A DNA stretch of 64,000 bases from Parcubacteria group bacterium (lineage in GTDB: Bacteria > Patescibacteriota > Microgenomatia > UBA1400 > PJMF01), in assembly GCA_943350175.1 (NCBI GenBank), contig CALQZX010000001.1:97702-161701 (forward strand). The letters are read 5' to 3'. Within the stretch, counting starts at the first letter, position 1; each line of letters opens with the position of its first letter. Below are positions 1,920 to 51,074 of the stretch, one piece after another. Made by a program: the position numbers and the translations under genes. Under the pieces are notes generated by a model that was not told where the DNA came from, did no database searches, and saw only the letters and a program-made list of their open reading frames with translations.

Positions 1920-2016
1920 AACGTGATTATATATTAGTGATACTAATTAATGCATTATGATTATATGTGAGTCAGGTGGAGACGCTGAGCGTGCTACGCC
2001 GCCTCAGATTACTCCG

Positions 2017-2061
2017 CATAATGCGCCTCGCTATGCTCGTGTGCATTATTTAGCTCAATAA
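2017..2061. repeat. Conserved hairpin element (CATAATGC-N19-GCATTATT), copy A, 3' of tRNA-Lys(CTT)
   Basis: cataatgcgcctcgctatgctcgtgtgcattatttagctcaataa is ~85% identical to 24225..24267. It contains an 8-bp inverted repeat CATAATGC/GCATTAT(t). Confidence 0.6.
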
Positions 2062-2100
2062 CGCGAACCATGAGTTTTCATCCTTACCTGCTTCATTTAT

Positions 2101-2130
2101 AAAAAAAGACTCAAGAATGAGTCTATTTTT
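2101..2130. terminator. Bidirectional rho-independent terminator 3' of tRNA-Lys(CTT)
   Basis: aaaaaaAGACTCaagaatGAGTCTattttt: a 6-bp stem with an A-run upstream and a T-run downstream. Confidence 0.55.
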
Positions 2131-2136
2131 ATAAAG

Positions 2137-2210
2137 TGAGTCAGGTGGGACTCGAACCCACGACACCCTGCTTAAGAGGCAGGTGCTCTAACCGACTGAG
2201 CTACTGACCC
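2137..2210 (-). tRNA. tRNA-Lys (anticodon CTT)
   Basis: The reverse complement folds as a cloverleaf: acceptor GGGTCAG/CTGACTC, anticodon stem CCTGC/GCAGG, loop CTCTTAA, T-arm GTGGG-TTCGAGT-CCCAC. Confidence 0.85.
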
Positions 2211-2246
2211 GATTTAACTTAAGGACATATTATAGCATTGTATAAA

Positions 2247-3770: not shown

Positions 3771-3811
3771 AATTTGTAATTCAAATCAACAAAATTCAAG
3801 GATCGATTGTA

Positions 3812-5200: not shown

Positions 5201-5202
5201 AT

Positions 5203-6027
5203 TTAAACCTTATAAGATTCAACAATTTCCCATTTACTTTTTCCATCAAAATTTAATTTAAACATAGTATTTCTTATGCTAATCTTTCGCCATTTTTGCT
5301 TTTCTTCTTGGCTAAAATTGCCAAGAAGTGTGGCAGCAATTACTCTGATGGTATTGGAGTGGCCGATGTGCAAAATGTTTTTTCCATTTCTAAGCTCTTC
5401 TTTAATGAGTTCTAATTCTGGAGTGGCTCGATCCCTAACCATTCCGTAGTTTTCAGCATATTGGTGTCGATTTTCTCCAGATGGCGGCAAATAGTCTGAA
5501 TTATCGCGTAAATTCCTATATATTTCATTGCTTTCTTCTCTTATATCTTCCCTTGGTCGTCCGGCATAAATTCCATATCCTTTTTCGACTAAAGCTGTTG
5601 TAGCGATAATCGGAGCTACAATAGTATTATTTAATCTAAAGATTTTTCTTTCAAGAATAGGCTTATCTTTATCAGAAATAACTTCTGGCAAAGCATTATG
5701 GAAAATTTGAGTCGATAAAGACAAAACTTCTTCAAAGAATCTTCTTAATTCTTCATCATCAACTTCTTGATAGTAAGTTAAGCAAAGATTGAATAAAGTT
5801 TGCAGCGATCTTTTTTGTGTTGAGCATTCAAATAAATTAAAACCAATTCTATTTTGACGAAGTAATTTTCCCATTGCTTGTGCATCTTTTTCACCTTCAG
5901 TAGTTAAGCCAGGGTTTTCCCATCCAGAAAAAACATTTCCAAGATTGTTTTCTGATTGTGTGTGTGGAAATAGATAAAGCTTGCCTATTTTCTCAGTCAT
6001 TACAAATTTCTCCAATTTGTTCCTCAT
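5203..6027 (-). CDS. Histidine phosphatase superfamily protein (phosphoglycerate mutase-like), divergent
   Basis: 274 aa. N-terminal FPHTQSENN...GW..PGLTTEGE resembles the RHGxxxxN phosphatase motif but with the Arg replaced (P-H-T). A second His motif is present (HIGHSNTIRV). Confidence 0.55.
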   Translation of the reverse strand: MRNKLEKFVMTEKIGKLYLFPHTQSENNLGNVFSGWENPGLTTEGEKDAQAMGKLLRQNRIGFNLFECSTQKRSLQTLFNLCLTYYQEVDDEELRRFFEEVLSLSTQIFHNALPEVISDKDKPILERKIFRLNNTIVAPIIATTALVEKGYGIYAGRPREDIREESNEIYRNLRDNSDYLPPSGENRHQYAENYGMVRDRATPELELIKEELRNGKNILHIGHSNTIRVIAATLLGNFSQEEKQKWRKISIRNTMFKLNFDGKSKWEIVESYKV

Positions 6028-7984
6028 TTACTAATGACGCAAAGAATTCTTTGATTAATGCAAAAATAGGATATTCATCTTTTTCTTCTTCGTAGACTGG
6101 TACTTTGAAACCAATAGCTCTTTGCGTGGCGTTAATTGGATTGGCTTGTCCATTGCCGCTCGGATCTTGGAATCTTCTCGCATACCACTCTGGTTCTAGG
6201 ATCGGTTCTATAATGCTATTTGAAGAATGATCTTCTGTCCAATCTAGCATTGATTGTGTGTACTCTATATCAAAAAACTTACAAACATTTTTTAACATTG
6301 ACTCACTATTATTTATTAATTGTTCTTGAAAAATTGTTTGATAGGAAATGCCTTCTACTTGCAGAGAACCAATCAGATCTTTAATGTAGCTCCAAGAAGC
6401 AAAGAAGATTTTCTCTGAGGCTGGACTCATTTCAAAAGTTTTCCCCCATGATTTGTAAGTAATTTTTGGATCTCTTAGAACTACAAGTACTTTTATTTTA
6501 TCTCTTGGACAACCGGCTTCTAATAAATCTTGGATTGGATTGAAAATTTCGCTTGGAGTGTATGGTCCAAGAGTTTCTTTTAAGATTATCTTTCTTGACT
6601 CATTTGCGCTCGGAACCTGCCAATTTGCATTTATACCAACATCATCATTTCTTCTTAAATGCTTTAGAACCTGATAGAAAGAAGGGTCTCCACCTGGAAG
6701 AAGAGCTCTTTGGAGAGCAGTTGTCCCAGTTCTGCATGGCCCAACAATCAAATTAATTTCAGGCCATTCTCCATTCTCTGGCGGAGTAATATGTTCTTTA
6801 GGATCATATGATTGTATTCCATCAATTTCTTTATACCTTCTCTTTTCGGCTCTACCTGAAATTTCTAAATAGTTGGCAAAAGCTATTTTTCTGTTTTCTT
6901 GAAAATCAGCTAATAAGTTAGGATCATTCTCAGCAATAAATTTTTCTATTTGGTTGGTAATTTCTTCTAAGTAAAAACATTTTAGAGAATTTGGAATATT
7001 CAATGTAAAAACAATACTCCCAAGCTCCAGTGCCAATTTAGAATAAATACCGCTTTTTTTAATTAGTCTTTCGTAAAAGTATTTCCAAGCAATGTCTCCA
7101 TCTGCCTGATCCAAAAATCTTCTTATAAATGGAGTGGATGGTTCCTGATCACGATTTCCTGGCGCAAAGATGTCAATAAACCAAAGAGATGCTTTTCCAA
7201 GTTCGTCGAAATGTATGACAAAATTATTTGGTTTTAGATCTAAAGCAAATGGTAATTCACCTTCTTTTGGAATAGCTTTAAAAACTTTATCTTTTGCAGA
7301 AACTTTGTAATCAATAATTTGTTTTAAGTATTGAAGCATGCTTTCTACAAGCATGCTGACTATTTCTAAAACTTCCGAATCGCAGGCTAATTTGAAAATA
7401 TCCTCAAAGTTAAATCCTTCTATAAACTCTTGATCGTAGCTAATCAAATGTTGTTTTGATTCTTTTTCTGTTACTTTTGTTTTTTTTAGTTTAAGTAATC
7501 TTGGCACATTTACTCCAATGGCCTCTAGCTGTCTTTGATAAATTGAAAGATCTGCTAGTGTTGCCTTTGCCATGCTTGAGTCCATTTCATAAGAATGACC
7601 TTGTGGGACTGGTATTTGCCCATCTGCTCTTCTTCCCCCTGCTTCAGGAGCATTTCCATAAGTTTTTCTAATTGCTGAGAGCTGTCCTGCTTCAGTGAAA
7701 AGTCCCTCCATGACGCTTGATTTTGATGGATGAGGAACTGGTGGTAATATTCCAGGAAACAACTTTTTGTCTTTTTTGGTTGGGAGATTAGCTCTTGAGC
7801 CAGAGACGGATATCTCTTCAGCTTCAATTAATAGATTAAGTGCTTCTCTAACAGGTTCGTTTGTTTTTTGTTCAAAGCTCGCAGCAGAGGATGGACACGT
7901 TTGTTCTTCTATTGTCTTCTTTGTCTTCTTTTCTTTTTCCAACATACTCGCTGTCGACATCTGCAAAACAGCAAACGCCAACAA
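5993..7984 (-). CDS. Large protein with C-terminal sulfotransferase domain
   Basis: 663 aa. The C-terminal third carries PAPS-binding-like motifs GPCRTGTTAL (5'-PSB) and VLVVLRDPKITYKSW (3'-PB). The N-terminal ~400 aa is unknown. The start may be the internal Met (MSTASM). Confidence 0.5.
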   Translation of the reverse strand: MLAFAVLQMSTASMLEKEKKTKKTIEEQTCPSSAASFEQKTNEPVREALNLLIEAEEISVSGSRANLPTKKDKKLFPGILPPVPHPSKSSVMEGLFTEAGQLSAIRKTYGNAPEAGGRRADGQIPVPQGHSYEMDSSMAKATLADLSIYQRQLEAIGVNVPRLLKLKKTKVTEKESKQHLISYDQEFIEGFNFEDIFKLACDSEVLEIVSMLVESMLQYLKQIIDYKVSAKDKVFKAIPKEGELPFALDLKPNNFVIHFDELGKASLWFIDIFAPGNRDQEPSTPFIRRFLDQADGDIAWKYFYERLIKKSGIYSKLALELGSIVFTLNIPNSLKCFYLEEITNQIEKFIAENDPNLLADFQENRKIAFANYLEISGRAEKRRYKEIDGIQSYDPKEHITPPENGEWPEINLIVGPCRTGTTALQRALLPGGDPSFYQVLKHLRRNDDVGINANWQVPSANESRKIILKETLGPYTPSEIFNPIQDLLEAGCPRDKIKVLVVLRDPKITYKSWGKTFEMSPASEKIFFASWSYIKDLIGSLQVEGISYQTIFQEQLINNSESMLKNVCKFFDIEYTQSMLDWTEDHSSNSIIEPILEPEWYARRFQDPSGNGQANPINATQRAIGFKVPVYEEEKDEYPIFALIKEFFASLVNEEQIGEICND

Positions 7985-8074
7985 GAAAACGCTAATTATA
8001 ACCCTGAAGTCAAGTTAATTGTTGGTGAAGAATAATGTGAAGATATTTTAAATATCAAATTTCTTTATGTGATG

Positions 8075-8149
8075 TGCACCTGAGAGGGCTCGAACCTCCA
8101 CAAACCCAGTTCCGAAGACTGGTGCCCTATCCATTAGGCCACAGGTGCG
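8075..8149 (-). tRNA. tRNA-Arg (anticodon TCG)
   Basis: Revcomp GCACCTGTGGCCTAATGGATAGGGCA-CCAGT-CTTCGGA-ACTGG...GGTTCGAGCCC...CAGGTGC-A. Confidence 0.8.
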
Positions 8150-8280
8150 TATATTGCATTTTACCACTTCAAATAGCTTATTTAATCAGAACTACAAAAG
8201 AGCTGCAAATTAAAACTACAACTTAAAAAATGTGCTAAAATCCTCTCTGTCGTTTGTTCCTTAAAATTCTCAAAAAATTA

Positions 8281-8362
8281 GCCGAGATGGCGGAATTGGT
8301 AGACGCGCACGTCTCAGAAGCGTGTGGAGCAATCCTTGGAGGTTCGAGTCCTCTTCTCGGCA
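8281..8362 (+). tRNA. tRNA-Leu (anticodon CAG), type II with long variable arm
   Basis: GCCGAGATGGCGGAATTGGTAGACGCG...CACGT-CTCAGAA-GCGTG...GGTTCGAGTCC...TCTCGGC-A. Confidence 0.85.
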
Positions 8363-8398
8363 CGAGGTTTTTCGCGTATAATGGCAATTTGAAAACAC

Positions 8399-8479
8399 GC
8401 CCGGGTGGCGAAATGGTAGACGCGCAGTCTTGAGGTGGCTGTGGAGCAATCTGTGGAGGTTCAACTCCTCTCCCGGGCA
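8399..8479 (+). tRNA. tRNA-Leu (anticodon GAG)
   Basis: GCCCGGGTGGCGAAATGGTAGACGCG, anticodon arm CAGTC-TTGAGGT-GGCTG, T-arm GGTTCAACTCC, acceptor CCCGGGC-A. Confidence 0.85.
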
Positions 8480-8505
8480 CGTTCTTTGAAAAAGGTTGCA
8501 ATAAA

Positions 8506-8579
8506 GGGCAATTAGCTCAGTTGGTTAGAGCGCATCGTTTACATCGATGAGGCCACAGGTTCGAGCCCTGTATTGCCCA
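8506..8579 (+). tRNA. tRNA-Val (anticodon TAC)
   Basis: GGGCAATTAGCTCAGTTGGTTAGAGCG, anticodon arm CATCG-TTTACAT-CGATG, T-arm GGTTCGAGCCC, acceptor ATTGCCC-A. Confidence 0.85.
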
Positions 8580-8673
8580 CGACGGTGAGAGCGAAGCTCC
8601 CACCTAGTCCCCTTGGGGACCTGGTGGTAGTAATTTCAGAGAAATTAGTTAAAATATAAAAGCGTTAAAAAAC

Positions 8674-8746
8674 GCCAAGCTAGCCAAGTTGGTCACGGCA
8701 CATGTCTGAAAAACATGGGATCTAGGTTCGATTCCTAGGCTTGGCA
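8674..8746 (+). tRNA. tRNA-Phe (anticodon GAA)
   Basis: GCCAAGCTAGCCAAGTTGGTCACGGCA, anticodon arm CATGT-CTGAAAA-ACATG, T-arm GGTTCGATTCC, acceptor GCTTGGC-A. Confidence 0.85.
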
Positions 8747-8964
8747 CGTTCATTAAAAGATTATTTACCTAAGAAGGAAAAAAGCAGATCTTTCAGAAAG
8801 CCTAGGATGGCTTTGAAGATGTCGGCACCAATCATAACTGCTTTGGTGGCGGCTTTTTCAGCAGCTTTGGCGTAGATTTTGTTTTTTTGATCTTGGAATT
8901 CAGAGTAATTAGGCATGCTGTAATTATAAGTCCTCTCTGGTAAAATAATAGTGTAAATTAACAA

Positions 8965-9037
8965 GCGAGAGTAGTTCAGTGGCTAGAATGTTTCCTTGCC
9001 AAGGAAAAGGTCGCGAGTTCGAATCTCGTCTCTCGCT
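8965..9037 (+). tRNA. tRNA-Gly (anticodon GCC)
   Basis: GCGAGAGTAGTTCAGTGGCTAGAAT, anticodon arm TTTCC-TTGCCAA-GGAAA, T-arm GAGTTCGAATCTC, acceptor CTCTCGC with discriminator U. Confidence 0.85.
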
Positions 9038-9226
9038 CAGAAAATATTTTTCATATGTGCAAACTAATCGAGTCTGGCGGTGGCTTAGCTGCTGGCGAAA
9101 ATGTAGAAGCGGCTGCTTTAGCTGGAACTTCTTTTTACTTAAAGAAGAAATATAAACGCCGTCTTCCCCCAAGCGAATAAAATTCTCAGTTTTTTCTAAG
9201 CTAGCAATGTTGTAATATGTATTCAT

Positions 9227-9679
9227 ATGAGGAAGTCTGCTGTCTTTATTCTAATTTTTACGGTAATTGTTTTATTTTACTTTTATTCATATAGCGGTAA
9301 CAAAGCGAGCCAAGGCAAAGCCTCTTCCAATTCTTACCCGACTCCATTTCAAAATAATAAGCCATCAAATGCCGTGGCAAAACCAACGGTGACCGGAACC
9401 TCTACGAGAGTCGTGTCGCCTATTGCTGTCACCGCGACTCCAGCTAGCGGCAATGGCAAAATGACTATGAGCGATGTTTCCAGCCATAATAAAAGAAATG
9501 ATTGTTATTTGGTTATCAAAAATAATGTCTATGACGTTTCTAGCTATATTTCTAATCATCCTGGCGGACAAGGAAAGATTATTAGCAACTGTGGCCAAGA
9601 AGTAACTGGTATTTTTGCTGATATTCACTCTAATTTTGCTTGGGATTTATTAAAAAATTATAAAATTGGCCAAATTTAA
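9227..9679 (+). CDS. Membrane-anchored cytochrome b5-like heme-binding domain protein
   Basis: 150 aa. N-terminal TM helix, Ser/Thr/Pro-rich linker, then cyt-b5 motif ...CYLVIKNNVYDVSSYISNHPGG.... Confidence 0.7.
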   Translation: MRKSAVFILIFTVIVLFYFYSYSGNKASQGKASSNSYPTPFQNNKPSNAVAKPTVTGTSTRVVSPIAVTATPASGNGKMTMSDVSSHNKRNDCYLVIKNNVYDVSSYISNHPGGQGKIISNCGQEVTGIFADIHSNFAWDLLKNYKIGQI

Positions 9680-10946
9680 TATGTATCTTTTTCTAGCCAT
9701 TTTTTTCTCGACATTGCCTTTTCTTTGGTTGTTTACGCAAGTTTCAATTATGGGTAGTTTTACGGCTGCTTTTGCCAATATTGCTGGTTTAGTTGGTGTC
9801 GTTCTAATGATGTGGCAAATAATTTTGGGCAATCGTTTTATTGTCAGAAATTTGACCAGAGATTATGTTTCCATGATCAAGTTGCATATCTTTTTAGGGA
9901 TTTATAGTCTGTTTTTGGTATTAGCTCACCCATTTTTAGAAATGATTTCCTATGGTAAAACTTTTACTTTCTTGCTGATTCCAGATCTTAGTTCTGAGCT
10001 AGGAAGTCATGTGGCCTTGGGTATCGTGGCAATTTATCTTTACTTATTTGTTTGGCTCAGTAGTGCTTTAACGAGAGACAAAATTTCTTACAGAATCTGG
10101 CGCTATTTGCATTATTTAGCCTACCCGATGCTGTTCTTTGCCTTTATTCACGCTGTAGAAATAGGAACTTTCCTAAGTAGTTTCATTTTGCTCAAAGCCT
10201 ATTTCATAATCTTGATGGTCGGTTTCGCGGCTGCTGTGCTCTACAGATTTAGCCAATTACTTGATGTTGGTAAATTTCCCTATGTTTTGTCTAGTAAAAA
10301 ACAAAGTAGCACTGGCGTAACAGCTTACACTTTTCGACCGATGGCTATTTCTTTAACTCCGAAAATCGGCCAATTCTTTTTTATTAAGCCAAGTGTTTTT
10401 GCTGAGAGTCATCCTTTTACGGTCATGAATTTTGTCGAGGAAAGTGGTGAATTAACTTTTGGGATTAAAGCTGTCGGTAAATTTACCAATCAACTAGAAG
10501 GCATCAGCGTTGGTCAAACTGTTTTTCTTGATGGACCATATGGGGTTTTTACCAGTGAAGCGCATAATAATAAGCCCAAGGTGATTATTGCTGGTGGCAT
10601 CGGCATCACGCCTTTTGTGGAGCTGGTTAGCCGCTTTGGTGACCAAAATACCAAGCTTTTCTACGCTAATAAATACCTCAAAGAAGCTGTTTCTCGTGAG
10701 CAATTTAAGGCGCAACTTGGAGCTAATTATTTTGATGTGATCTCTAGAGAAGAGATCAAAACAGAGACCGTAATTCAAGGAAGATTAAATGAACAGGTTT
10801 TTACGCAAAATCTAACTGCAGACTTTATCAAGCAGGCCAATTTTTTCATTTGTGGAAGCCCAGGTTTTATGGGTGGCGTATTAATGAGTTTGCATAAACT
10901 CGGCATCGATAAAAAAAGAATCTTTACTGAGGAGTTTTCTTTTTAG
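9666..10946 (+). CDS. Ferric-reductase-like transmembrane domain fused to FAD/NAD(P)-binding (FNR-like) oxidoreductase
   Basis: 426 aa. N-terminal ~200 aa polytopic with conserved His in helices (FRE/NOX-like). C-terminal HPFTV (FAD), GPYG and IAGGIGITPF (NAD) motifs. Confidence 0.7.
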   Translation: MAKFNMYLFLAIFFSTLPFLWLFTQVSIMGSFTAAFANIAGLVGVVLMMWQIILGNRFIVRNLTRDYVSMIKLHIFLGIYSLFLVLAHPFLEMISYGKTFTFLLIPDLSSELGSHVALGIVAIYLYLFVWLSSALTRDKISYRIWRYLHYLAYPMLFFAFIHAVEIGTFLSSFILLKAYFIILMVGFAAAVLYRFSQLLDVGKFPYVLSSKKQSSTGVTAYTFRPMAISLTPKIGQFFFIKPSVFAESHPFTVMNFVEESGELTFGIKAVGKFTNQLEGISVGQTVFLDGPYGVFTSEAHNNKPKVIIAGGIGITPFVELVSRFGDQNTKLFYANKYLKEAVSREQFKAQLGANYFDVISREEIKTETVIQGRLNEQVFTQNLTADFIKQANFFICGSPGFMGGVLMSLHKLGIDKKRIFTEEFSF

Positions 10947-10955
10947 GAAGAAACA

Positions 10956-11969
10956 TTAATCTTTTAGGTATCTTTTCCAGGTAGAGAAAACTGTGCGAGC
11001 TACGATGAAGATAGGTACAGCTAATAGTGCGCCAATCACTCCAAATAATTCTGCTCCGATTAAAATACCAAGAATGGAAACTAGTGGATTGATATCCACA
11101 TTAGTCTTCATAATTTTTGGCACAATTAAGTTGTTTTCTAATTGTTGAATGATCAAATAAAGCACGGCAGTAGTCATTGCTCCTGGCCAACCAAAGGTCA
11201 AGAAGGCAACGGCGATGGCAGGAATAGCTGAGAAAATTGGTCCGATGTTTGGCACGATTTCGAGAATGCCAGCAATAATTGCCAACGGCAAAGCATAAGG
11301 TATTTTGAGAACGATTAATCCCAAGAAGGTCATCAGGCCAATGGCAGACATGAGAATAATCTCGCCTCTAATCCAGTTGCCGAGCTGATTGTCTACTTCA
11401 TGAAAAAAGCTTTTGATGGCTTCTTCTTTGCCGTGATCTAGAAGTTTAGCTAGGTCTTTGATTAATCTTGGTTTTTCAAGAGAGAAATATAGAGAAACCA
11501 CCATTGTAGTGATAGCGACAAAAGCACCTGAAAAAGTAGTGCTAATAATGGTAAAAGCAGTGTTGACTGAAGTGCCGAAAGTATCAAGTAAACCCTTGAT
11601 ACTACTGAAATTAACTTCAAAATTTTCTAATTCACTTTGGAAAACTGATGGCAGCTGAGCATTTGTAAATAAATTGGAGATTTCTTTTATAAGTGGCGGG
11701 AAAATAAAAGCCAGGAAAAGTGAAATTGTCGAGATAAACAAAGAATAGACAATCAACACTCCAAAAATTCTGTGAAGTTTAAATTTGCTTTCTAATTTAT
11801 CAATACCTTTATTGAGGCCAACGCTAATAATATAAGAAATAAAAGTCATGAAAATAATGGCTTGAATTTGCATAGCCAACCAGATGGAAGCGATGAATAG
11901 AAAAGTGAAGATTACAATCGAAGGAGAAATTTTAACTAAAAGTTCGCTTTTGGATGATGTATCTGACAT
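10956..11969 (-). CDS. AI-2E family transporter (PerM/UPF0118)
   Basis: 337 aa polytopic, with characteristic GNWIRGEIILMSAIGL...IPYALPLAIIAGILEIVPNIGPIFSAIP region. Confidence 0.8.
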   Translation of the reverse strand: MSDTSSKSELLVKISPSIVIFTFLFIASIWLAMQIQAIIFMTFISYIISVGLNKGIDKLESKFKLHRIFGVLIVYSLFISTISLFLAFIFPPLIKEISNLFTNAQLPSVFQSELENFEVNFSSIKGLLDTFGTSVNTAFTIISTTFSGAFVAITTMVVSLYFSLEKPRLIKDLAKLLDHGKEEAIKSFFHEVDNQLGNWIRGEIILMSAIGLMTFLGLIVLKIPYALPLAIIAGILEIVPNIGPIFSAIPAIAVAFLTFGWPGAMTTAVLYLIIQQLENNLIVPKIMKTNVDINPLVSILGILIGAELFGVIGALLAVPIFIVARTVFSTWKRYLKD

Positions 11970-35394: not shown

Positions 35395-35605
35395 ACATCA
35401 TTATAAATATAAGGTCCGAAATTCGCTTTGCATCTTTCGTACCAGCTGCTTTTTGCTTCAGCATCATCTTTCTTGCGAAAGCTGTTGCTGGGGTCCGAAA
35501 TTCGCTTTGCATCTTTCGTACCGCTTGGTCCGAAATTCGCTTTGCATCTTTCGTACCAGCTGCTTTTTGCTTACTGCAAAAAGACAGGGTCCGAAATATA
35601 ATACC
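35395..35605. repeat. Tandem hairpin direct repeats upstream of tRNA-Leu(TAG)
   Basis: 31-nt unit GGTCCGAAATTCGCTTTGCATCTTTCGTACC at 35413..35443, 35492..35522 and 35527..35557. Partial copies at ~35325 and 35588..35605. Units 1 and 3 are followed by AGCTGCTTTTTGCTT. Each unit is an imperfect hairpin (GGTCCGAAA/TTTCGTACC). The ORF-track ORFs here are spurious. Confidence 0.65.
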
Positions 35606-35614
35606 ACCTAATAA

Positions 35615-35695
35615 GCCCGGGTGGCGAAATGGTAGACGCGCATGTTTTAGGAGCATGTGGAGCAATCTATGGAGGTTCAAGTCCTCTCCCGGGCA
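35615..35695 (+). tRNA. tRNA-Leu (anticodon TAG)
   Basis: GCCCGGGTGGCGAAATGGTAGACGCG, anticodon arm CATGT-TTTAGGA-GCATG, long variable arm, T-arm GGTTCAAGTCC, acceptor CCCGGGC-A. A paralog of tRNA-Leu(GAG) at 8399. Confidence 0.85.
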
Positions 35696-35715
35696 CAAGA
35701 AGAGATATCAATGAT

Positions 35716-36225
35716 ATGAAAAAACGAATATATAAAAAATGGATTTATTTCTTAATTTTGCTATTCGTAGCAGGTTTTTTATTTCTAAGCAAGCTTGATA
35801 CTACGATACCCACAGTTAAATTGAAATTTGTGTCACGTGACCCGTTAAAAGAACAGCAACTAGAATATTCATACTCATATCAAGGTGACGACTTGATGAG
35901 AGGTAATAAATTTGGTGGTTATGGTTATTCGGAAATTAAAACTGCCATAACAGGTCAGATTGTTGAAATTCCAACAAAAAGAATTATTAGTTACTGGCCA
36001 TTTTCTAAATTTACCTATTTATTGATTAACGGTGATCAAATCGAGACATCTCAAGGATATTGTTCTTGGGCGGCAAGTATATGGGCTGATAAGCATAAAT
36101 CTTTACTAGATCAAGACAATAAAATTAAAGAAAATGTTGGAAGGCATCTTTATCTTATCAACACTAGTAGTGAATTTATTTTTGATAATGTGAAAGATAA
36201 AGTTATCGAGGTTAAGTGTCTATAA
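35716..36225 (+). CDS. Hypothetical membrane-anchored protein
   Basis: Start at MKKRIYKKWIYFLILLFVAGFLF (after the tRNA). ~169 aa. No motif. Confidence 0.4.
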   Translation: MKKRIYKKWIYFLILLFVAGFLFLSKLDTTIPTVKLKFVSRDPLKEQQLEYSYSYQGDDLMRGNKFGGYGYSEIKTAITGQIVEIPTKRIISYWPFSKFTYLLINGDQIETSQGYCSWAASIWADKHKSLLDQDNKIKENVGRHLYLINTSSEFIFDNVKDKVIEVKCL

Positions 36226-36449
36226 GAGTTTGTAGCGTTTAATCTTCTGAAAAAATGAACATGGTGTTTGGAAGATAAATTTAGAAATGGTTCGAAATTA
36301 AAATTATCTTCACACTAAAAGAGACAGCACTGTTATTAGGCGTGTAAATAGATTGATGTAGATTTTAAAACCTGAATAAGTCGCGATACATATTGCACTC
36401 CTAACAAGTAGTTCTATGTCTTCAGATATTCCCTCATTAAGATATGTAT

Positions 36450-37201
36450 TGTCCAATTTTCATCATGGGTATACTGCCATTTCGTCTCCATGTATTGGAG
36501 AATGATAAGGAGTATGGAGTGCAATCAACGCTCTCTGCTTTTGGGGTAAGCAGAAAAACATACTTTTACTGGCAATTACCCTCATGCAATCACGGGGGAG
36601 AATTGCCTCTCTTGTTCCCTTGAGTACTCGTCCTCATCACACTTGTCGTATGGTGATTGATAAGCTATTGCTTGCCTTCATTAAATTTATTCAAGAAACC
36701 TACGTTAGGATTGGGAAAGAAAAATTAGTGATTCTGGTCTCTGCCTATGCCAAATCACTGGGTGTTGGTGAGTATGGCGCTTCCAAGATGGGTGCGATCA
36801 TCACGAGCAACCACTACTTCTTTGATCCTCCCAAAAAAAGGAGGCAACCAACCTTTTTCAAATCAAGAGTAAGGAGGGTGGAAAAAGATATTGCGCCAGG
36901 ATACGTTGAGTAAGAGTTCTTCTTAAATTTTCATGAATATTTGGAAAAAGAAAATATTAAACACCAATTTACTTATCCAAGATCACCAAAGATTAATGGC
37001 GTGGTTGAAAGATTCAATGAAACCATTCAAGAAGAGTTTCTTCAAAGAAATGATGAGATCTACTTTGACTTAGAAGGATTTGAGGGTAAACTAACAAAGT
37101 ATTTAGATTGGTACAACACCAAACGACCACACATGGCACTTAATTATTTATCTCCAATGCAATTTATTCAAAGGAGTATTCCGGAAAGTATGTGCCTATA
37201 A
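36450..37201 (+). pseudogene. Degraded IS481/IS3-type DDE transposase (integrase-core, rve) remnant
   Basis: Frame-broken. Around 36500, ...GVSRKTYFYWQ resembles the transposase HTH 'vSRsTyyrW'. 36941..37201 encodes YPRSPKINGVVERFNETIQEEF...YNTKRPHMALNYLSPMQF, a typical rve-domain C-terminus. No intact ORF spans the element. Confidence 0.55.
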
Positions 37202-37265
37202 CATAAACCTTGACACTATATAGTTTATGTGCTAAACTATTCACATAATAAACAATATTTATATT

Positions 37266-37700
37266 ATGAATAATATCAACACAAAATTACTATCTGAATT
37301 TTTAAGCAAAGCAGTTAAAGTCCGCAGATTGATCGAACAGACGAGTTCGTTTGAAGATAAGGCGATCACACTACTTCAAGTTCAAGCACTTACTTACATT
37401 CACACCCATCCCAAAACTCCCGTAGGTTCACTAGCGGATGAGCTATCTATGTCACTGTCAGCAGTAGCGCAGCTTACCAATCGCCTAGCTGATGCAGGTT
37501 ATATTCAAAGAGAAGATAGCTTAACAGATCGCAGGATAATATGTCTTTCCATTACTCAGGAAGGTGCAAGGCAAATGGCAGTCTTTAAAAAACAATTAGA
37601 GAAAAATCATTTTAAAGTTTTATCAGCGATTCCGGAAAATGATCTTAAGGAATTAGTCCGCATATTTACCAACATTTTAGAGGTTCAAAACCAAGAATAA
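37266..37700 (+). CDS. MarR family transcriptional regulator
   Basis: 144 aa. wHTH LSMSLSAVAQLTNRLADAGYIQREDSLTDRR. Confidence 0.8.
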   Translation: MNNINTKLLSEFLSKAVKVRRLIEQTSSFEDKAITLLQVQALTYIHTHPKTPVGSLADELSMSLSAVAQLTNRLADAGYIQREDSLTDRRIICLSITQEGARQMAVFKKQLEKNHFKVLSAIPENDLKELVRIFTNILEVQNQE

Positions 37701-37701
37701 T

Positions 37702-38655
37702 ATGAAAATTCCTAAAATATATCCAATAATAGTCCTAATCATAGTTTTGGCGGTTGGATTTAAAACTGTCGTGTTGCGTAAACCTGATACTCGTCTTTTA
37801 TACACGACCCAAAAGGAAACATTTCTTGAAACTATTCAAGTAAGTGGTATCTACCATAAAACGGCTACGGAAACAGAAAAAGCCACTACCTATGCGACCT
37901 ATCAAAGCGCCCTTAGCACTATTGTGATATCAAGGCAAAATAAGGAAGCGGCAGATGCCACGATGTGGCTGAAAAGACAAGCTGTTTTAGATGCAGAGAA
38001 CGGCGTCGATTACAAAGATGACAACACAACAAATCCTGCTACCAAAGAAGATTACACTGATCTAGAAAAACTAAGCATAGATTCAAAACTTGTTCAGGCA
38101 GAGAAAGATTTTCTCTCATCAGAGACTAAGTATAAAGAGGCAGGTATTTCTATTGCCGCCGCTCAAGCACAAGTGAATCTGTCCAAAATTGCCTATGAAG
38201 ATACCTTGGAAAACGAGCCACTGTTAACCGTATATGTAAATGAAGTTTATGCTCCCAAAGTCTCACTTGGGCAAAAAGTGAATGTCACTTTTGATGCGCT
38301 CAAAGATGTGGTTTTTGCTGGAAAGATCTCCTCCATTGATTCGGTAGGCACTGTTACTGGTGGAGTTACCACTTTTGAAGCGAAAATTGAAATCATTGAT
38401 TTGCCAGCTGAGATCAAACCCAATATGACAGCGATTGCTACCATTGAGTTAATTCGTAAAGAAAATACCATTGCCATACCAATGAGCGCGATAATTTACC
38501 AGGATGGAAAAGCATTTATCCAAAAAGCCAGTAGTGATGATGGAGTTTTGACACCGGTGGAACTTGGAGAAAAGGGATTTGTCAAGGTGGAAGTAATCTC
38601 TGGTTTGGATAGTGGAACAGAAGTGCTGGTCAGACCAAACAGTAAAAGTTTATGA
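37702..38655 (+). CDS. Efflux transporter periplasmic adaptor (membrane fusion protein, MacA/HlyD-like)
   Basis: 317 aa. N-terminal TM anchor, coiled-coil, beta-barrel region. Operonic with the ABC permease and ATPase. Confidence 0.7.
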   Translation: MKIPKIYPIIVLIIVLAVGFKTVVLRKPDTRLLYTTQKETFLETIQVSGIYHKTATETEKATTYATYQSALSTIVISRQNKEAADATMWLKRQAVLDAENGVDYKDDNTTNPATKEDYTDLEKLSIDSKLVQAEKDFLSSETKYKEAGISIAAAQAQVNLSKIAYEDTLENEPLLTVYVNEVYAPKVSLGQKVNVTFDALKDVVFAGKISSIDSVGTVTGGVTTFEAKIEIIDLPAEIKPNMTAIATIELIRKENTIAIPMSAIIYQDGKAFIQKASSDDGVLTPVELGEKGFVKVEVISGLDSGTEVLVRPNSKSL

Positions 38656-39926
38656 AAATACAAGTGAGTTTTAACAAACTTAAAAAAGATCTGACAGTAG
38701 GGCAATTTTTAGCAGTTCGCGAACTGAAACGTAATAATCCCTGGTCAACAGCCCTTATTATCTTCGTGATGTCTCTGACATTTTTTAATATGGTGTTAAT
38801 GGGTGGTATTCTCATTGGATTGGCTGACGGAATGATGAACTCATTCAAAACGTATTACTCTTCAGACATTTTAATCAAGCCGATCAGTCAAAATACCTCA
38901 ATATCTCAAGTTAGCATGCTCGACTCCGTTATTAAAAGCTTACCTTCCTACAAGTCTTTATCAAAACGATATACCGTGCCTGCAATTCTAGAGAACGAAG
39001 GTAAGATAAAAATTAAAGATACAGAAATTGGCCAACGAGTAAGTAGTACACTGGTCGGAATTAATCCAAGCGAAGAAGATGCAGTTACTGGATTATCCTC
39101 TCAATTAATTTCTGGGGAATTTTTAAGCGATTACGACACTGATGGGATTATTGTAGGGAAGAGTTTATTATCCGAATACTCCAAAGGTTCTTCCACGGAA
39201 TCACGCCTAGAAGGAGTGGTAATCGGATCTAGATTAAAACTGATGATTGGCAAAACGGAGACAGAGGCTATTGTCAAAGGGATCATTGATACCGGCAATA
39301 GCACCGTGGATAGCCGCATCTTTATACTTGAGAGTACTATGCGCGCACTAACAAATAATCAAAGTCTTGATGTTAACGAAATAGCTGTATTGCTCAATCA
39401 AGGTTCTGATAACAAAGAAGCCAAGGGATATATAGTAGACAATTTCTCTTATAGTACCGACGTTATTGTCGAAACGGCTGAAGAAACCTTGCCAAAGGCC
39501 ATTTCAGATATGAAAAAAACATTTTCAATGCTAGGTAATATTGTGGGTGTAATTTCACTTATTGTCGGAGCAATTACGATTTTTATCGTTATCTTTGTTA
39601 ATGCCATCACCAGGAGAAAATATATCGGCATTATGAAGGGAATTGGAATATCCGCACGCGCCATTGAGATCTCGTATGTCATTCAATCATTATTTTATGC
39701 ACTTTCTGGGATACTATTTTCGAGCCTGATTATTATTTGGTTTCTTGCCCCCTGGTTTGATCTCCACCCTTTACAATTTCCCGTCACCGAAGGGAGATTA
39801 GCGATCACTACAAACGGCCTTATCATTCGCGGCCTTATCTTGACTGTTACAGCCTTCATCTCTGGCTATGTTCCAGCCTGGATGGTGACCAAACAAAATA
39901 CATTAGACGCAATTTTGGGTAGATAA
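38652..39926 (+). CDS. ABC transporter permease, FtsX-like (MacB-type)
   Basis: 424 aa. N-terminal TM, large periplasmic domain, C-terminal FtsX-like TM bundle. Confidence 0.8.
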   Translation: MKIQVSFNKLKKDLTVGQFLAVRELKRNNPWSTALIIFVMSLTFFNMVLMGGILIGLADGMMNSFKTYYSSDILIKPISQNTSISQVSMLDSVIKSLPSYKSLSKRYTVPAILENEGKIKIKDTEIGQRVSSTLVGINPSEEDAVTGLSSQLISGEFLSDYDTDGIIVGKSLLSEYSKGSSTESRLEGVVIGSRLKLMIGKTETEAIVKGIIDTGNSTVDSRIFILESTMRALTNNQSLDVNEIAVLLNQGSDNKEAKGYIVDNFSYSTDVIVETAEETLPKAISDMKKTFSMLGNIVGVISLIVGAITIFIVIFVNAITRRKYIGIMKGIGISARAIEISYVIQSLFYALSGILFSSLIIIWFLAPWFDLHPLQFPVTEGRLAITTNGLIIRGLILTVTAFISGYVPAWMVTKQNTLDAILGR

Positions 39927-39931
39927 AAAAT

Positions 39932-40618
39932 ATGATAAAAGCTAGTAATCTGACAAAGATATTTACAATCGGTGACAATACGCTTACTGCGCTAAAGAAA
40001 ATTAGCTTTTCAGTGCCATCTGGCCAATTCTTAGCCATCACTGGCATGTCTGGATCTGGTAAAAGCACACTTTTATACCAACTGAGCTTATTGGATCATC
40101 CTAATCAGGGCACTATTGAGATTGAAAACGTCAACACATCCCTATTAACAAGTGATGAAAGAATCTCCTTTAGATTGAAAAATTTGGGCTACATCTTTCA
40201 GGACTATGCCATCCTACCTATGCTGACAGCCAAGGAAAATGTCATGATGCCTCTTCTAATGCAAGGAGTTGATGAAAAAATAGCTCAAAAAAAGGCAGAA
40301 GAAGCACTTGAAAAAGTCGACCTTCAAGACAGACTAGACAACCTGCCAAGCCAGCTTTCTGGTGGTCAACAGCAGAGAGTCAGTATTGCACGGTCAATCG
40401 TGCATAATCCAAAAATTCTTTTTGCCGATGAGCCAACCGCCAATTTAGACACAGAGTCATCAGAAAAAGTCTTAGATATTTTCTTGAATCTCCATAAGCA
40501 AGGTCAAACCATTATTATGGTTACTCATGAACCTGAATACGCTAAATTAGCAGAGCGGAACATCGAACTCAGAGATGGATCAATAATAAATGAAATAATC
40601 CAAAAACATAGTAAGTAA
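39932..40618 (+). CDS. ABC transporter ATP-binding protein (MacB/LolD-type)
   Basis: 228 aa. Walker A GMSGSGKST, signature LSGGQQQRVSIAR, Walker B ILFADEPT. Confidence 0.9.
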   Translation: MIKASNLTKIFTIGDNTLTALKKISFSVPSGQFLAITGMSGSGKSTLLYQLSLLDHPNQGTIEIENVNTSLLTSDERISFRLKNLGYIFQDYAILPMLTAKENVMMPLLMQGVDEKIAQKKAEEALEKVDLQDRLDNLPSQLSGGQQQRVSIARSIVHNPKILFADEPTANLDTESSEKVLDIFLNLHKQGQTIIMVTHEPEYAKLAERNIELRDGSIINEIIQKHSK

Positions 40619-40768
40619 GAATATTTTTACTCTTTGTGCGTTGTTTATGAATCTGTATTATTGGCTTTTATCTTTTTGTGACTGGTGCTAGTTTTTTGGT
40701 AAACCGCAGACAAAATATCAAAAAATGATTCTAGTAGCAACTATCTCGATTAGTTGTATAATGCCAAT

Positions 40769-40972
40769 ATGAGTTTAGAAGATCAAAAGCTAGCCAAAAT
40801 CTTTAGAGACGCCAGAGAAGAGTCTGGACTAACCCAGGCTGGCCTAGCTAAGAAGGGTGGCTTTAATGCTAACTATTACGCCAGAGTAGAACGAGGCGAA
40901 GTTACCCCGCGTATAGATATTGTCGAGAAAATCGCCAAAGCCCTCAACATAAGTCTCAGGTTTCCACTCTAG
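40769..40972 (+). CDS. XRE-family helix-turn-helix transcriptional regulator
   Basis: From MSLEDQKLAKIFRDAREESGLTQAGLAKKGGF..YYARVERGEVTPRIDIVEKIAKAL, a Cro/C1-type HTH. Confidence 0.65.
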   Translation: MSLEDQKLAKIFRDAREESGLTQAGLAKKGGFNANYYARVERGEVTPRIDIVEKIAKALNISLRFPL

Positions 40973-41417
40973 GAATAATCGCGACTATTTTTATTAGCCC
41001 TTTTGTATCGTATAATACCCATGGGAACCCTGATGAATGGAGGCGGAAACTAGTTTATTCGGTTTCGCTTTGGACTTCATCATATGCGAGCATTATTTTC
41101 TGAATCCAAGGCAGAAAGTGTTCAAATAAAGATGCATCAGGGGCACATTTCTTTTAACATGCCGTTAGGCATGATAAAAGAAATGTTGTTCTATATAAGC
41201 AGCACTTGAACCGTAGGCGCCGGCAGCTAGCTGCCTAGTCCCTAAGTCCAAAATTTAAAATGAAATGGATGAAAGTCGCACATCGAGTCCCTGAAAAGGG
41301 ACGCGAGAAATGCGTCCAGACACGAAGTAGTCTGGGACAGCTCTCCCGGGCACATTTTTAGATTTAAAATCTAGTAATCAATGGTTGATGCTAAGTAATT
41401 GGCTTGAAAGCCTATTC

Positions 41418-41807
41418 TTACATTTCTTTGATGTCGCTTATTCTGCTCAGCAATAAATAAATTTTGCCATTACTTTTCTGATTGCCATTTTCGTATTTCA
41501 CAGTGGCATCTATTAAATAAGGACCAGCTTCATCAGATCCAAAGATTCCTTGAGCGGCTGTGACATTTTGGCCAGATTGGTATTCAACTGGCTGTAGGTA
41601 GGTTATGGAATATTGCTTGCCAGGAATTAGCTCTTTTCCAGATGCTTTTTCATTAGAGTTTCTAGCTTTGTCGAAATGTGAAAGGATTCTTACTCCTTTT
41701 CCGTGCTTTGCGGGGATGGTGTCGTAAGATCTTGCAACAACATCTCCCACACCAAGATCTTCCGGATGGTAGTCGTCTGATGGTAGCAAAAAAAGAGGTT
41801 CATTCAT
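41418..41807 (-). CDS. Hypothetical protein
   Basis: 129 aa ORF. No motif recognised. Confidence 0.4.
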   Translation of the reverse strand: MNEPLFLLPSDDYHPEDLGVGDVVARSYDTIPAKHGKGVRILSHFDKARNSNEKASGKELIPGKQYSITYLQPVEYQSGQNVTAAQGIFGSDEAGPYLIDATVKYENGNQKSNGKIYLLLSRISDIKEM

Positions 41808-41840
41808 ATATTTATTTTTTTATTTATTTAGTATTTAGAC

Positions 41841-41881
41841 AAAAAAACCCGTCCTATTTTTTAAAACAAGACGGGTGTTTT
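41841..41881. terminator. Bidirectional rho-independent terminator
   Basis: aaaaaaACCCGTCctattttttaaaacaaGACGGGTgtttt. Positioned 3' of the minus-strand gene ending at 41988. Confidence 0.5.
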
Positions 41882-41987
41882 GGTCTCAGAACGTAATCCC
41901 GGTGAGGAATAACCTTCTGAGTTAATAGGTATTATAGCAAATATTATAAGATAGTCAACTCTGGACCAGTTTTTGGATGATTATTGG

Positions 41988-50942: not shown

Positions 50943-51074
50943 TTGGAGGCTATCAAAAGTTTATTTTTTGATATGCACAGCATCTTTCATACCAGCTCCT
51001 TTTTTGTTTTGCAAAAAAGTAGGGTCTGAAATATAATATCGCTGGTCTCGCGAGAGATTTTGTATTTTTAACAA

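What the first reader, a model, noticed from the sequence alone, without database searches (positions are those of the whole stretch)
35615..41356. ~5.7-kb segment 3' of tRNA-Leu(TAG) bounded by a 14-nt duplicate of the tRNA 3' end (candidate remnant integrated island)
The last 14 nt of tRNA-Leu(TAG) (CTCTCCCGGGCACA, 35682..35695) recur exactly at 41343..41356, within an otherwise non-coding GC-rich stretch. Chance recurrence of a 14-mer within 6 kb is very unlikely. The enclosed segment carries a degraded DDE transposase, marR, a MacAB-type efflux set and an XRE regulator. That cargo, plus an att-like direct repeat at a tRNA 3' end, is the classic footprint of site-specific integration. No intact integrase remains.
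Basis: seen in the sequence. Interest (0 to 1): 0.55.

Follow-up and report, generated by a model that had tools for sequence, protein, structure and literature searches.

The report
tRNA-Leu insertion hotspot with structured tRNA-end-copy module
The repeated 14 bases are real, but they are the tail of a previously undescribed small hairpin element that many CPR bacteria carry just behind tRNA genes, always ending in a copy of that tRNA's end, and in this genome a 5.4-kb block of foreign genes has been inserted between the tRNA and that element.

Summary
Observation confirmed. CTCTCCCGGGCACA occurs exactly at 35684-35697 (tRNA-Leu-TAG 3' end) and 41341-41354, 2 nt off the stated coordinates, and chance does not explain it.

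Interpretation partly right. Related genomes have empty sites (orf221 only 130-175 bp from tRNA-Leu), and the locus holds different cargo in different relatives, so it is an insertion hotspot. But the 14-mer is not the scar of this island. It is the tail of a conserved ~60-nt two-hairpin scaffold (41278-41340; 71 bits) with strong covariation, no Rfam match and no literature match by sequence. I found it in 55 metagenome loci, always next to tRNA-derived sequence. In the close relative L142 the same hairpin-scaffold-tail module follows tRNA-Leu directly, with no island.

The real insert is 35698-41140 (5443 bp), flanked by a 7-bp duplication, GGGCACA. It is a mosaic: an unknown ORF, a degraded rve transposase, a marR-yknX-ftsX-ABC cassette found at 85-90% nt identity in two unrelated contexts, and an XRE gene. 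It has no integrase. In L022 and L045 a tyrosine-recombinase island inserts at the same position, either at the tRNA end or at the scaffold tail.

Best reading: site-specific accretion at tRNA-Leu, with the module acting as a second landing pad. What the scaffold itself does is unresolved.

The parts
35615..35696 (+). tRNA-Leu(TAG). Its last 14 nt (35684-35697, including 1 flanking nt) are copy 1 of the 14-mer.
   Evidence: ARAGORN; Rfam tRNA 55.5 bits
35691..35697 (+). GGGCACA, left copy of the 7-bp duplication flanking the 5.4-kb insert
   Evidence: window 35422-35697 aligns to L142 9990-9751
35698..41140 (+). Insert E0, 5443 bp. It is a mosaic without an integrase and is absent from L142, L093, L004 and other relatives.
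35716..36225 (+). orf169. No Pfam match; the N-terminus looks hydrophobic.
36444..37201 (+). Degraded DDE (rve) transposase split over three frames (orf59, orf109, rve86)
   Evidence: Pfam rve_3 1.4e-18; colinear homologues in L030 and L130
37200..40627 (+). Mobile cassette: marR (37266-37700), yknX/hlyD-like adaptor (37702-38655), ftsX permease (38652-39926), ABC ATPase (39932-40618)
   Evidence: 90% nt identity to L137 and 85% to L139 in unrelated contexts
40754..40972 (+). XRE/HTH_3 regulator. It is not part of the shared cassette.
41141..41147 (+). GGGCACA, right copy of the 7-bp duplication. This is the displaced end of the tRNA that precedes its native hairpin.
   Evidence: window 41141-41217 aligns to L142 9757-9685; alignment
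41146..41185 (+). AT-rich hairpin that directly follows the tRNA 3' end in relatives
   Evidence: self inverted match; orthologous in L142 and L022
41206..41217 (+). Conserved TTGAACCGTAGG. With 41267-41277 (GGATGAAAGTC, a small GAAA-loop hairpin) it forms a diverged copy of the T-stem 5' strand plus T-loop. The two parts are split here by about 50 window-specific nt.
   Evidence: alignment
41278..41340 (+). Scaffold: GCACA, hairpin A, GAAAT, then hairpin B (CCAGAC-ACGAAGTA-GTCTGG with a bulged G)
   Evidence: CM R1 71.4 bits, E 6e-16; covariation
41341..41354 (+). Tail: copy 2 of the 14-mer, equal to tRNA-Leu nt 62-75
41355..41838 (-). A second variable segment carrying orf129 (41418-41807, minus strand). 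It has no homologue in any relative. L142 has a DUF3800 gene at the same place.
41839..41987 (-). Conserved right flank (terminator hairpin plus a small-RNA-like block). In empty-site relatives it follows the tRNA directly.

Best explanation
The site immediately after GGCAC(A/C) at the 3' end of tRNA-Leu(TAG) is a recurrent integration site in this CPR lineage.

In the ancestor of the window's organism the tRNA was followed directly by a small gene-less module: an AT-rich hairpin, a spacer, a diverged copy of the T-arm 5' half, a conserved two-hairpin scaffold, and a 14-nt copy of the tRNA's own 3' end. The module therefore carries two copies of the attachment sequence and no genes, like a cis-mobilizable element. 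Its tail works as a second landing pad equivalent to the tRNA end.

Later, a 5.4-kb mosaic segment was inserted exactly at the tRNA end, duplicating GGGCACA. It holds orf169, a dead IS, a horizontally mobile MacAB-like efflux cassette with its MarR regulator, and an XRE gene. Another 0.5 kb (orf129) lies after the tail.

Shown: the anatomy, the empty sites, the uninterrupted state, the mobility of the cargo, and that integrase-bearing islands in relatives use the tRNA end or the tail interchangeably.

Inferred: that a tyrosine recombinase acting in trans inserted E0, and that the scaffold is the element-side part of the att site, possibly acting as a folded single strand.
For: 1. Empty sites and variable cargo at this locus.
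2. L142 (YgjP 83% identical) has tRNA, orthologous hairpin, scaffold (59 bits) and tail with nothing in between. Both window junctions map onto the same 7 bases of L142.
3. The module is colinear in L093, L131, L132, L022, L100, L115, L088 and L123.
4. L022's 5.5-kb insert is bracketed by two scaffold+tail copies and encodes a tyrosine recombinase (Phage_integrase 2.8e-41). The same island end, AGTTTATAAGG, with a 97%-identical integrase, abuts the tRNA end in L045 and the scaffold tail in L022.
5. In L093 the module is followed by 190 nt and then a visibly degenerate second scaffold+tail.
6. The cassette at 37200-40627 occurs in two other, unrelated contexts, one of them beside T4SS genes.
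7. In every case where the tRNA lies in the locus, the tail equals the local tRNA's last 13-14 nt. This includes a lineage-specific C/T difference at nt 67.
8. Precedents exist: CIMEs and accretion (PMC5704250), and tandem ssrA islands with a conserved motif just upstream of each direct repeat (PMC3146451).
Against: - No integrase lies in or near the window's insert. A 7-bp repeat is weak evidence by itself: GGGCACA occurs 5 times on the + strand of the window.
- E0 has no scaffold at its own right end (CM 8 bits).
- The orf129 and DUF3800 segments have no distal repeat.
- L045's island has no scaffold at its far end.
- An att-arm role does not explain the '5' class' copies, where the scaffold splits a copy of tRNA nt 1-26 at 12|13 upstream of His, Ile, Gly and Ala tRNAs. 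It also does not explain copies abutting tRNA nt 1, or tandem scaffold units.
- No recombinase family travels with the scaffold.
- The scaffold is absent from viral contigs, so no attP state was seen.
- Strong covariation with some G-U pairs would fit an RNA equally well.
Confidence: 0.5

Rival explanations
1. A single island, 35698-41340, integrated as one unit by site-specific recombination in the tRNA 3' end. The two 14-mers are its attL and attR cores.
For: The 14-nt repeat is exact and not due to chance. Both copies share the lineage-specific C at tRNA nt 67, while L142 and L093 have T in both copies. That suggests exchange between the two sites. E0 plus the module could still excise together using these repeats.
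Against: The module with its tail exists without E0 in L142, L093, L117 and many others, about 100 nt from the tRNA. Its hairpin and spacer are as diverged from L142's as the surrounding genome (83%), so it was inherited vertically and did not arrive with E0. E0 has its own 7-bp junction duplication at 41141. The variable region extends beyond the 14-mer.
Confidence: 0.12
2. The scaffold plus tail is a functional small RNA made as part of tRNA transcripts (leader or trailer). Its tRNA-identical flank lets it compete with, or mimic, part of the tRNA, for example to control maturation or to act as a decoy or guide. The 5.4-kb insert is an unrelated event that happened to land between the tRNA and this RNA.
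For: Two hairpins with 91.8% pairing, 11 of 19 pairs changed on both sides, and 0 of 500 shuffles as good. The scaffold has the same orientation as the adjacent tRNA in all but one case. In the 5' class and in the copies that abut nt 1, it lies between the tRNA's promoter and the tRNA, so it must be transcribed. Two modules in one genome (L120) are about 99% identical, yet each tail matches its own tRNA-Leu isoacceptor. The tail co-evolves with the tRNA.
Against: Distribution among close relatives is patchy: the scaffold is absent from L002-L006. It is associated with inserted DNA and with an integrase island. There is no own promoter or terminator consensus. Tail identity tracks a C/U change that would pair with G either way, which points to copying rather than selection for pairing. 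Loops are rich in C-GNA-G, a motif known for stability in single-stranded DNA (my own knowledge). There is no expression data.
Confidence: 0.22
3. The module is a miniature non-autonomous transposable element that targets tRNA genes and makes a fixed target-site duplication of about 14 bp. It would be mobilised by an enzyme encoded elsewhere, such as a casposase-like or HUH/single-strand transposase. Islands merely exploit the duplicated target.
For: The repeat has a fixed length (tRNA nt 62-75) across Leu, Tyr and Gln tRNAs. There are near-identical copies at two tRNA-Leu genes in one genome with locus-specific repeats. Tandem and inverted nested copies exist. Copies with simple insertion geometry occur in a decayed tRNA gene (L086). 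Distribution is patchy. Casposons are known to make 14-15-bp duplications at tRNA 3' ends (my own knowledge, not tested here).
Against: There are no terminal inverted repeats. No Cas1 or HUH gene was seen in the neighbourhoods I examined. The 5' class is not a simple target duplication. Module content varies from the scaffold alone (L083) to about 200 nt.
Confidence: 0.15

Closest known systems
tRNA/tmRNA-targeting genomic islands with tandem accretion, and cis-mobilizable elements (CIMEs); for example ICESt1-type accretion and the Dehalococcoides ssrA islands (PMC5704250, PMC3146451)
   Same: Insertion at the 3' end of a tRNA-type gene. A direct repeat of that end at the far boundary. Several elements in tandem. 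Gene-less remnants that keep both att copies and serve as landing sites. A conserved element-side motif immediately upstream of the repeat. The integrase lies next to the tRNA-proximal junction (L022, L045).
   Different: The conserved element-side sequence here is a 60-nt covarying two-hairpin structure rather than a short motif. It also occurs upstream of tRNAs, splitting a copy of nt 1-26, and it occurs in tandem units. The window's large insert has only a 7-bp repeat and no integrase.
Folded single-strand recombination sites of tyrosine recombinases (integron attC; CTX-phage attP used by XerCD)
   Same: A hairpin with extrahelical bases whose structure is conserved while its sequence varies. 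Association with short Xer-like tyrosine recombinases (270-318 aa with a SAM-like N-domain). Cassette-like units that each end in the structured site.
   Different: There is no GTTRRRY R-box, no IntI and no dif-like target. The target is a tRNA end. Nothing here shows the single-stranded form. The resemblance is recalled from knowledge, not tested.
Casposons (Cas1-dependent transposons)
   Same: A duplication of about 14-15 bp of a tRNA gene's 3' end at the insertion site; tRNA-Leu is a known casposon target (my own knowledge).
   Different: No Cas1, no PolB and no terminal inverted repeats. The islands seen here carry tyrosine recombinases.
Scaffold-plus-guide RNAs at transposon ends (TnpB omega-RNA, homing crRNA of type V-K CAST, IS110 bridge RNA)
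   Same: A conserved structured scaffold immediately followed by a short variable segment identical to the target site, which is a tRNA gene. The variable segment changes with the target while the scaffold stays the same.
   Different: No TnpB, Cas12k or IS110 gene is nearby. The scaffold is far shorter than an omega-RNA. Most copies are isolated mini-modules. There is no evidence of transcription as a guide.

Membership tests
tRNA-integrated genomic island (tyrosine-recombinase type) | Segment present next to the tRNA 3' end but absent from the orthologous site in relatives | tested here: met
   L004, L007, L008 and L009 are empty sites. L142 and L093 lack E0.
tRNA-integrated genomic island (tyrosine-recombinase type) | Direct repeat of the tRNA 3' end at the distal boundary of the inserted segment | tested here: inconclusive
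   Only a 7-bp GGGCACA repeat lies at the true boundary. The 14-nt repeat belongs to the older module.
tRNA-integrated genomic island (tyrosine-recombinase type) | Integrase gene within the element | tested here: not met
   No Phage_integrase domain in any insert ORF. No tblastn hit in the window. This feature is met in relatives L022 and L045.
tRNA-integrated genomic island (tyrosine-recombinase type) | Cargo of horizontal origin | tested here: met
   The cassette 37200-40627 occurs at 85-90% nt identity in two unrelated contexts.
tRNA-integrated genomic island (tyrosine-recombinase type) | Atypical base composition | tested here: inconclusive
   GC is 0.31-0.41 inside against 0.37-0.44 outside. 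Only orf169 is clearly lower.
Cis-mobilizable element (CIME) | Keeps attL and attR copies but has no integration or transfer genes | tested here: met
   The module 41141-41354 has a partial tRNA end on its left, a 14-nt copy on its right and no ORF.
Cis-mobilizable element (CIME) | Accretion with an incoming integrase-bearing element at one of its att copies | tested here: met
   In L022 the island abuts the module's tail. The same island abuts the tRNA in L045. This evidence is structural only.
Cis-mobilizable element (CIME) | Excision or mobilisation by an integrase acting in trans | not testable with these tools
   Needs reads spanning excision junctions, or an experiment.
CRISPR array | Conserved repeats separated by unique spacers | tested here: not met
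   The 55-56-nt tandem units have identical, self-pairing 'spacers'.
Known RNA families (tmRNA, RNase P, SRP, self-cleaving ribozymes, others in Rfam 15) | Match to a curated covariance model | tested here: not met
   No hit at gathering threshold. Only irrelevant hits up to E = 10 in 40600-41500.
Integron attC site | R-box GTTRRRY at the recombination point, with IntI nearby | tested here: not met
   No such box appears in the scaffold consensus. The neighbouring integrases are plain Xer-like.
Casposon | Cas1 casposase and terminal inverted repeats | tested here: not met
   No Cas1 in the ORFs I examined. The module ends are not inverted repeats.
TnpB/IscB omega-RNA or CAST homing crRNA | An adjacent RNA-guided nuclease or transposase gene | tested here: not met
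   No gene family is shared around the scaffolds. None appears in the window's insert.

The most novel reading that the evidence does not exclude
The scaffold is a new class of structured element. It could be a folded single-strand DNA site or a small RNA. It is physically coupled to a copy of its target, a 14-nt piece of a tRNA gene, and it programs or marks where DNA is inserted next to tRNA genes in CPR bacteria. In effect it would be a portable, retargetable landing pad: the same scaffold is seen with the 3' ends of Leu, Tyr and Gln tRNAs and with the 5' parts of His, Ile, Gly, Ala, Thr and Tyr tRNAs.
Probability: 0.3. Interest if true: 0.8.

Novelty: new variant of a known kind. Interest (0 to 1): 0.58.

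Why it matters
CPR/Patescibacteria have tiny genomes, and little is known about how they gain genes. This locus shows a defined hotspot where cargo turns over: an efflux pump here, and toxin/HNH, DUF3800 and unknown genes in relatives.

More importantly, following up the 14-mer exposed a widespread, strongly covarying 60-nt element that is absent from Rfam and that I could not find in the literature. It is always attached to tRNA-derived sequence that co-evolves with the neighbouring tRNA.

If it is an att-site component, it extends the accretion/CIME model to a structured, retargetable site. If it is an RNA, it is a new tRNA-linked RNA class. In either case it gives a searchable marker for integration sites in CPR metagenome bins.

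Tried and rejected
1. tmRNA, RNase P, SRP or a ribozyme at 41100-41360. I suspected these from the hairpins and an LAA-ending reading frame. There is no Rfam support and ARAGORN finds no tmRNA.
2. An intrinsic terminator made from the 14-mer (GTCTGGG/CCCGGGC plus a T-run). The pairing is lost in L022 and others, so it is a coincidence of the tRNA-Leu acceptor sequence.
3. A CRISPR-like array, suggested by the 55-56-nt periodicity in L091, L120 and L135. The 'spacers' are identical and are structured themselves.
4. A degenerate scaffold at the right end of E0 (41116-41149). The CM gives only 8 bits, so I dropped it.
5. A protein family that travels with the scaffold. None exists; shared neighbours only reflect host synteny.
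6. The scaffold on viral contigs, which would show an attP state. A strict and a loose pattern scan gave nothing credible; the best hit, L145 at 19.5 bits, is unrelated coding-like sequence.
7. Literature search by sequence and by topic found no description.
8. The closest relative, L141 (YgjP 90%), has a contig that breaks at the tRNA, so it is uninformative.
9. The ORFs in L003's 5.3-kb insert have no Pfam match.
10. The integrase in L094/L130 near class-(e) scaffolds is a Xer-like protein among pilin genes and may be chromosomal, so it is not decisive.

Full report
**Observation**

The 14-mer CTCTCCCGGGCACA occurs exactly twice on the + strand, at 35684-35697 and at 41341-41354. A one-mismatch copy at 8468-8481 is the 3' end of tRNA-Leu(GAG). 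The expected count at up to 2 mismatches is 0.09, and no shuffle reaches 3. tRNA-Leu(TAG) spans 35615-35696. The absence of an integrase also holds.

**Is there an island?**

The source is a 168-kb metagenome contig from a Pacebacteria-like CPR bacterium. Using the YgjP-like gene next to the tRNA as an anchor, I fetched 80 related genome loci.

The conserved order is orf327, orf221, tRNA-Leu(TAG), YgjP, holA, PGM. The gap between the orf221 stop and the tRNA varies:

| Locus | Gap between orf221 and tRNA-Leu |
|---|---|
| L004 | 133 bp |
| L007, L008, L009 | 172-175 bp |
| Window | 6.3 kb |
| L002 | 1.6 kb |
| L003 | 5.3 kb |
| L022 | 5.9 kb |
| L045 | about 3.6 kb |
| L142 | about 1.3 kb (DUF3800 gene) |

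No cargo is shared among these inserts. In L004 the tRNA is followed after 6 nt by a terminator hairpin. The homologue of that hairpin lies at window 41839-41880. So everything from 35698 to about 41838 is extra relative to an empty site. That range extends beyond the 14-mer and includes orf129.

**What the second 14-mer belongs to**

The 80 nt ending in the second 14-mer match two places in L022 at about 80% identity, although L022 is distant (YgjP 45% identical). The alignment shows compensatory changes, and in each genome the last 14 nt equal that genome's own tRNA-Leu 3' end.

A pattern taken from the invariant core found 55 metagenome loci and no viral contigs. The element has this form: GCAC(A/U), hairpin A (closed by UC...GA, with a variable stem), GAAAU, then hairpin B (G-NNN-CCAGAN, an ACGAAGUA loop, NUCUGG, a bulged G, NNN-C).

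On 33 distinct copies, 91.8% of cells pair, against 17-45% when the partners are slid. Eleven of 19 pairs change on both sides, and no shuffle out of 500 does as well. Variants in L142 (UCAGAU-GCGAAGCA-AAUCUGA) and L099 add further compensatory changes. They suggest the loop closes further into a C-GAA-G apex with a second bulged base.

The window holds a single significant copy, at 41278-41340 (71 bits, E 6e-16). No Rfam family matches it. Literature searches by sequence and by topic found nothing.

**What flanks the scaffold**

The sequence to the right of the scaffold is always tRNA-derived.

- **3' class** (Leu-TAG, Leu-CAG, Leu-GAG, Tyr, Gln). A complete tRNA is followed by an AT-rich hairpin, a spacer, a conserved GAACCGTAGG-TGARAGTC, the scaffold, and then 13-14 of 14 nt identical to the last 14 nt of that tRNA. 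GAACCGTAGG-TGARAGTC matches the tRNA-Leu T-stem 5' strand plus T-loop at 10 of 13 positions; that comparison is my own reading of the sequences. The scaffold core starts 97-105 nt after the tRNA end.
- **5' class** (His, Ile, Gly, Ala). A copy of tRNA nt 1-12, the scaffold, then a copy of nt 13-26, lying 50-95 nt upstream of the real tRNA and downstream of its promoter.
- **Other arrangements.** The scaffold abuts tRNA nt 1 (Thr, Tyr). It follows tRNA-Leu(CAA) directly. It carries degenerate C-rich tails. Some loci have 2-3 tandem scaffold units and one has an inverted pair.

No protein family travels with the scaffold. It is absent from the closest species representatives, L002-L006.

**Anatomy of the window**

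L142 (YgjP 83% identical) has tRNA-Leu(TAG) followed directly by a hairpin orthologous to window 41146-41185. After that come the spacer, TTGAACCGTAGGTGAAAGTC, a scaffold (59 bits), a tail, a DUF3800 gene and the conserved flank. L093 and L117 look the same, but after the tail they have 190 nt and then a visibly degenerate second scaffold+tail.

Window 35422-35697 and window 41141-41217 both align to L142, meeting on the same seven bases, GGGCACA. The multiple alignment agrees. The window's layout is therefore:

| Coordinates | Feature |
|---|---|
| 35615-35697 | tRNA-Leu(TAG) plus 1 flanking nt |
| 35698-41140 | Insert E0, 5443 bp, flanked by the 7-bp duplication GGGCACA |
| 41141-41354 | Module, ending in the 14-mer tail; it contains about 50 extra nt specific to the window |
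| 41355-41838 | orf129 segment |
| From 41839 | Conserved flank |

E0 is a mosaic. Only 37200-40627 (marR, yknX, ftsX, ABC) is shared with other genomes, and the shared block starts at the base where the dead rve ORF ends. It is 90% identical in nucleotides to L137, where it sits beside TrbC, T4SS-pilin, PrgI, TraC-like and VirB4-like genes. It is 85% identical to L139, a 949-kb Shapirobacteria contig, where it lies among toxin-antitoxin and GIY-YIG genes.

**Link to site-specific recombination**

L022's 5.5-kb insert lies between two scaffold+tail copies. It encodes a 270-aa tyrosine recombinase placed directly against the tRNA-proximal copy, followed by an ADP-ribosyltransferase toxin and an HNH endonuclease. 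L045 has a 97%-identical integrase.

The two junctions read:

- L045: ...CCTCTCTTCGGCACC|AGTTTATAAGG, where the left side is the tRNA end.
- L022...GGGATACCTCTCGTCGGCACC|AGTTTATAAGG, where the left side is the scaffold tail.

So the tail is used exactly like the tRNA end. Every insert I examined starts immediately after GGCAC(A/C): E0, the L022 module, the L022 and L045 islands, and the orf129 and DUF3800 segments.

This matches the published picture of decayed elements that keep their att sites (CIMEs) and accrete new elements (PMC5704250). It also matches the tandem ssrA islands of Dehalococcoides, which have a conserved element-side motif just upstream of each direct repeat (PMC3146451).

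**What remains unexplained**

- An att-arm role does not account for the 5' class, for the tandem units, or for the lack of an associated recombinase at most copies.
- The tail co-evolves with the tRNA. Window, L142 and L093 have orthologous modules, yet at tRNA nt 67 the window has C in both the tRNA and the tail, while L142 and L093 have T in both. In L120, two modules about 99% identical sit behind Leu-CAG and Leu-GAG. The Leu-CAG module's tail matches its own tRNA. The second module's tail runs off the L120 contig, but in L091, a locus with the same array, the tail carries the Leu-GAG 3' end sequence. Both C and U at nt 67 would pair with G6, so the pattern points to repeated copying (excision and re-integration, or fresh duplication) rather than to selection for pairing.
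- Whether the structure acts as RNA or as single-stranded DNA is open. In the 5' class the scaffold must be transcribed, because it lies in the tRNA leader. Against that, 13 of 18 hairpin-A triloops are GNA, 10 of those are closed by C-G, and the hairpin-B apex is C-GAA-G. That motif is known for exceptional stability in DNA mini-hairpins (my own knowledge), as used by single-strand recombination systems.

**Verdict**

It is the tail of an independent, conserved, apparently undescribed structured module.

I rate the island itself as ordinary. The module is the interesting part. I file the whole as a new variant of tRNA-site accretion, with about a 30% chance that the scaffold represents a new kind of element.

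Noticed in passing
window 41841-41960, minus strand: A highly conserved small-RNA-like gene lies between the tRNA-Leu terminator and the orf221 stop. It has TTGACA-N17-TATAAT, then a hairpin (CUCAGAAGG...CCUCACCGGGA...CGUUCUGAG), then a terminator with a U-run. It is present in 30 Patescibacteria loci, with a few compensatory changes in the outer stem. No Rfam family reaches threshold; the best is Yfr10 at 27.6 bits, below its cut-off of 43.
   Followed up: partly
window 35413-35574: There are three copies of a 31-46-nt unit (GGTCCGAAATTCGCTTTGCATCTTTCGTACC...) just upstream of tRNA-Leu. Each starts like the tRNA's own promoter-proximal sequence (GGGTCCGAAATATAATACC). Related sequence lies upstream of the tRNA-Lys genes (1331-1393 and 50980-51038) and in L005 and L142. 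This may be scarring on the 5' side of the same hotspot, or duplicated promoter elements.
   Followed up: partly
window ~41218-41268: About 50 nt found only in the window are inserted inside the module, between GAACCGTAGG and the small GAAA hairpin. They include the GC-rich palindrome GGCAGCTAGCTGCC.
   Followed up: no
L137 (JBGAUR010000007.1) 650-11434: The same efflux cassette (95% aa, 90% nt identity) lies beside a conjugation/T4SS cluster (TrbC, T4SS pilin, PrgI, TraC-like, VirB4-like, M23 peptidase). This looks like a possible conjugative element in a CPR bacterium.
   Followed up: partly
L022 3625-9172 and L045 ~5500-9070: A tRNA-Leu island family with a Xer-like integrase, an ADP-ribosyltransferase toxin and an HNH endonuclease. 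Only the integrase end (about 1.1 kb) is shared between the two genomes.
   Followed up: partly
L099 ~420-650: Two scaffolds in inverted orientation share one tRNA-Tyr-derived tail. The minus-strand copy has a variant hairpin-B loop (GUGAAACA) that keeps the proposed extra pairs.
   Followed up: partly
tails in L022 (copy 1), L100, L115, L089/L133: Four distinct tails read ...GCACCA. That is, they carry CCA where the neighbouring tRNA gene does not encode it (L100, L115). This is more than I would expect by chance (a rough estimate of my own), and it hints that some tails may derive from, or mimic, mature tRNA ends.
   Followed up: no
L086/L102 ~1260-1410: The scaffold sits at position 12|13 of what looks like a complete but decayed tRNA gene, whose anticodon loop is reduced to 3 nt, upstream of tRNA-His. 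This suggests a simple insertion into a tRNA gene that was then lost.
   Followed up: no
L094, L098, L104, L130, just upstream of the scaffold: Clusters of TATAGGAC/CCTATA repeats occur next to the scaffold and again near a Xer-like integrase gene 1.3 kb away. They could be arm-type binding sites.
   Followed up: partly
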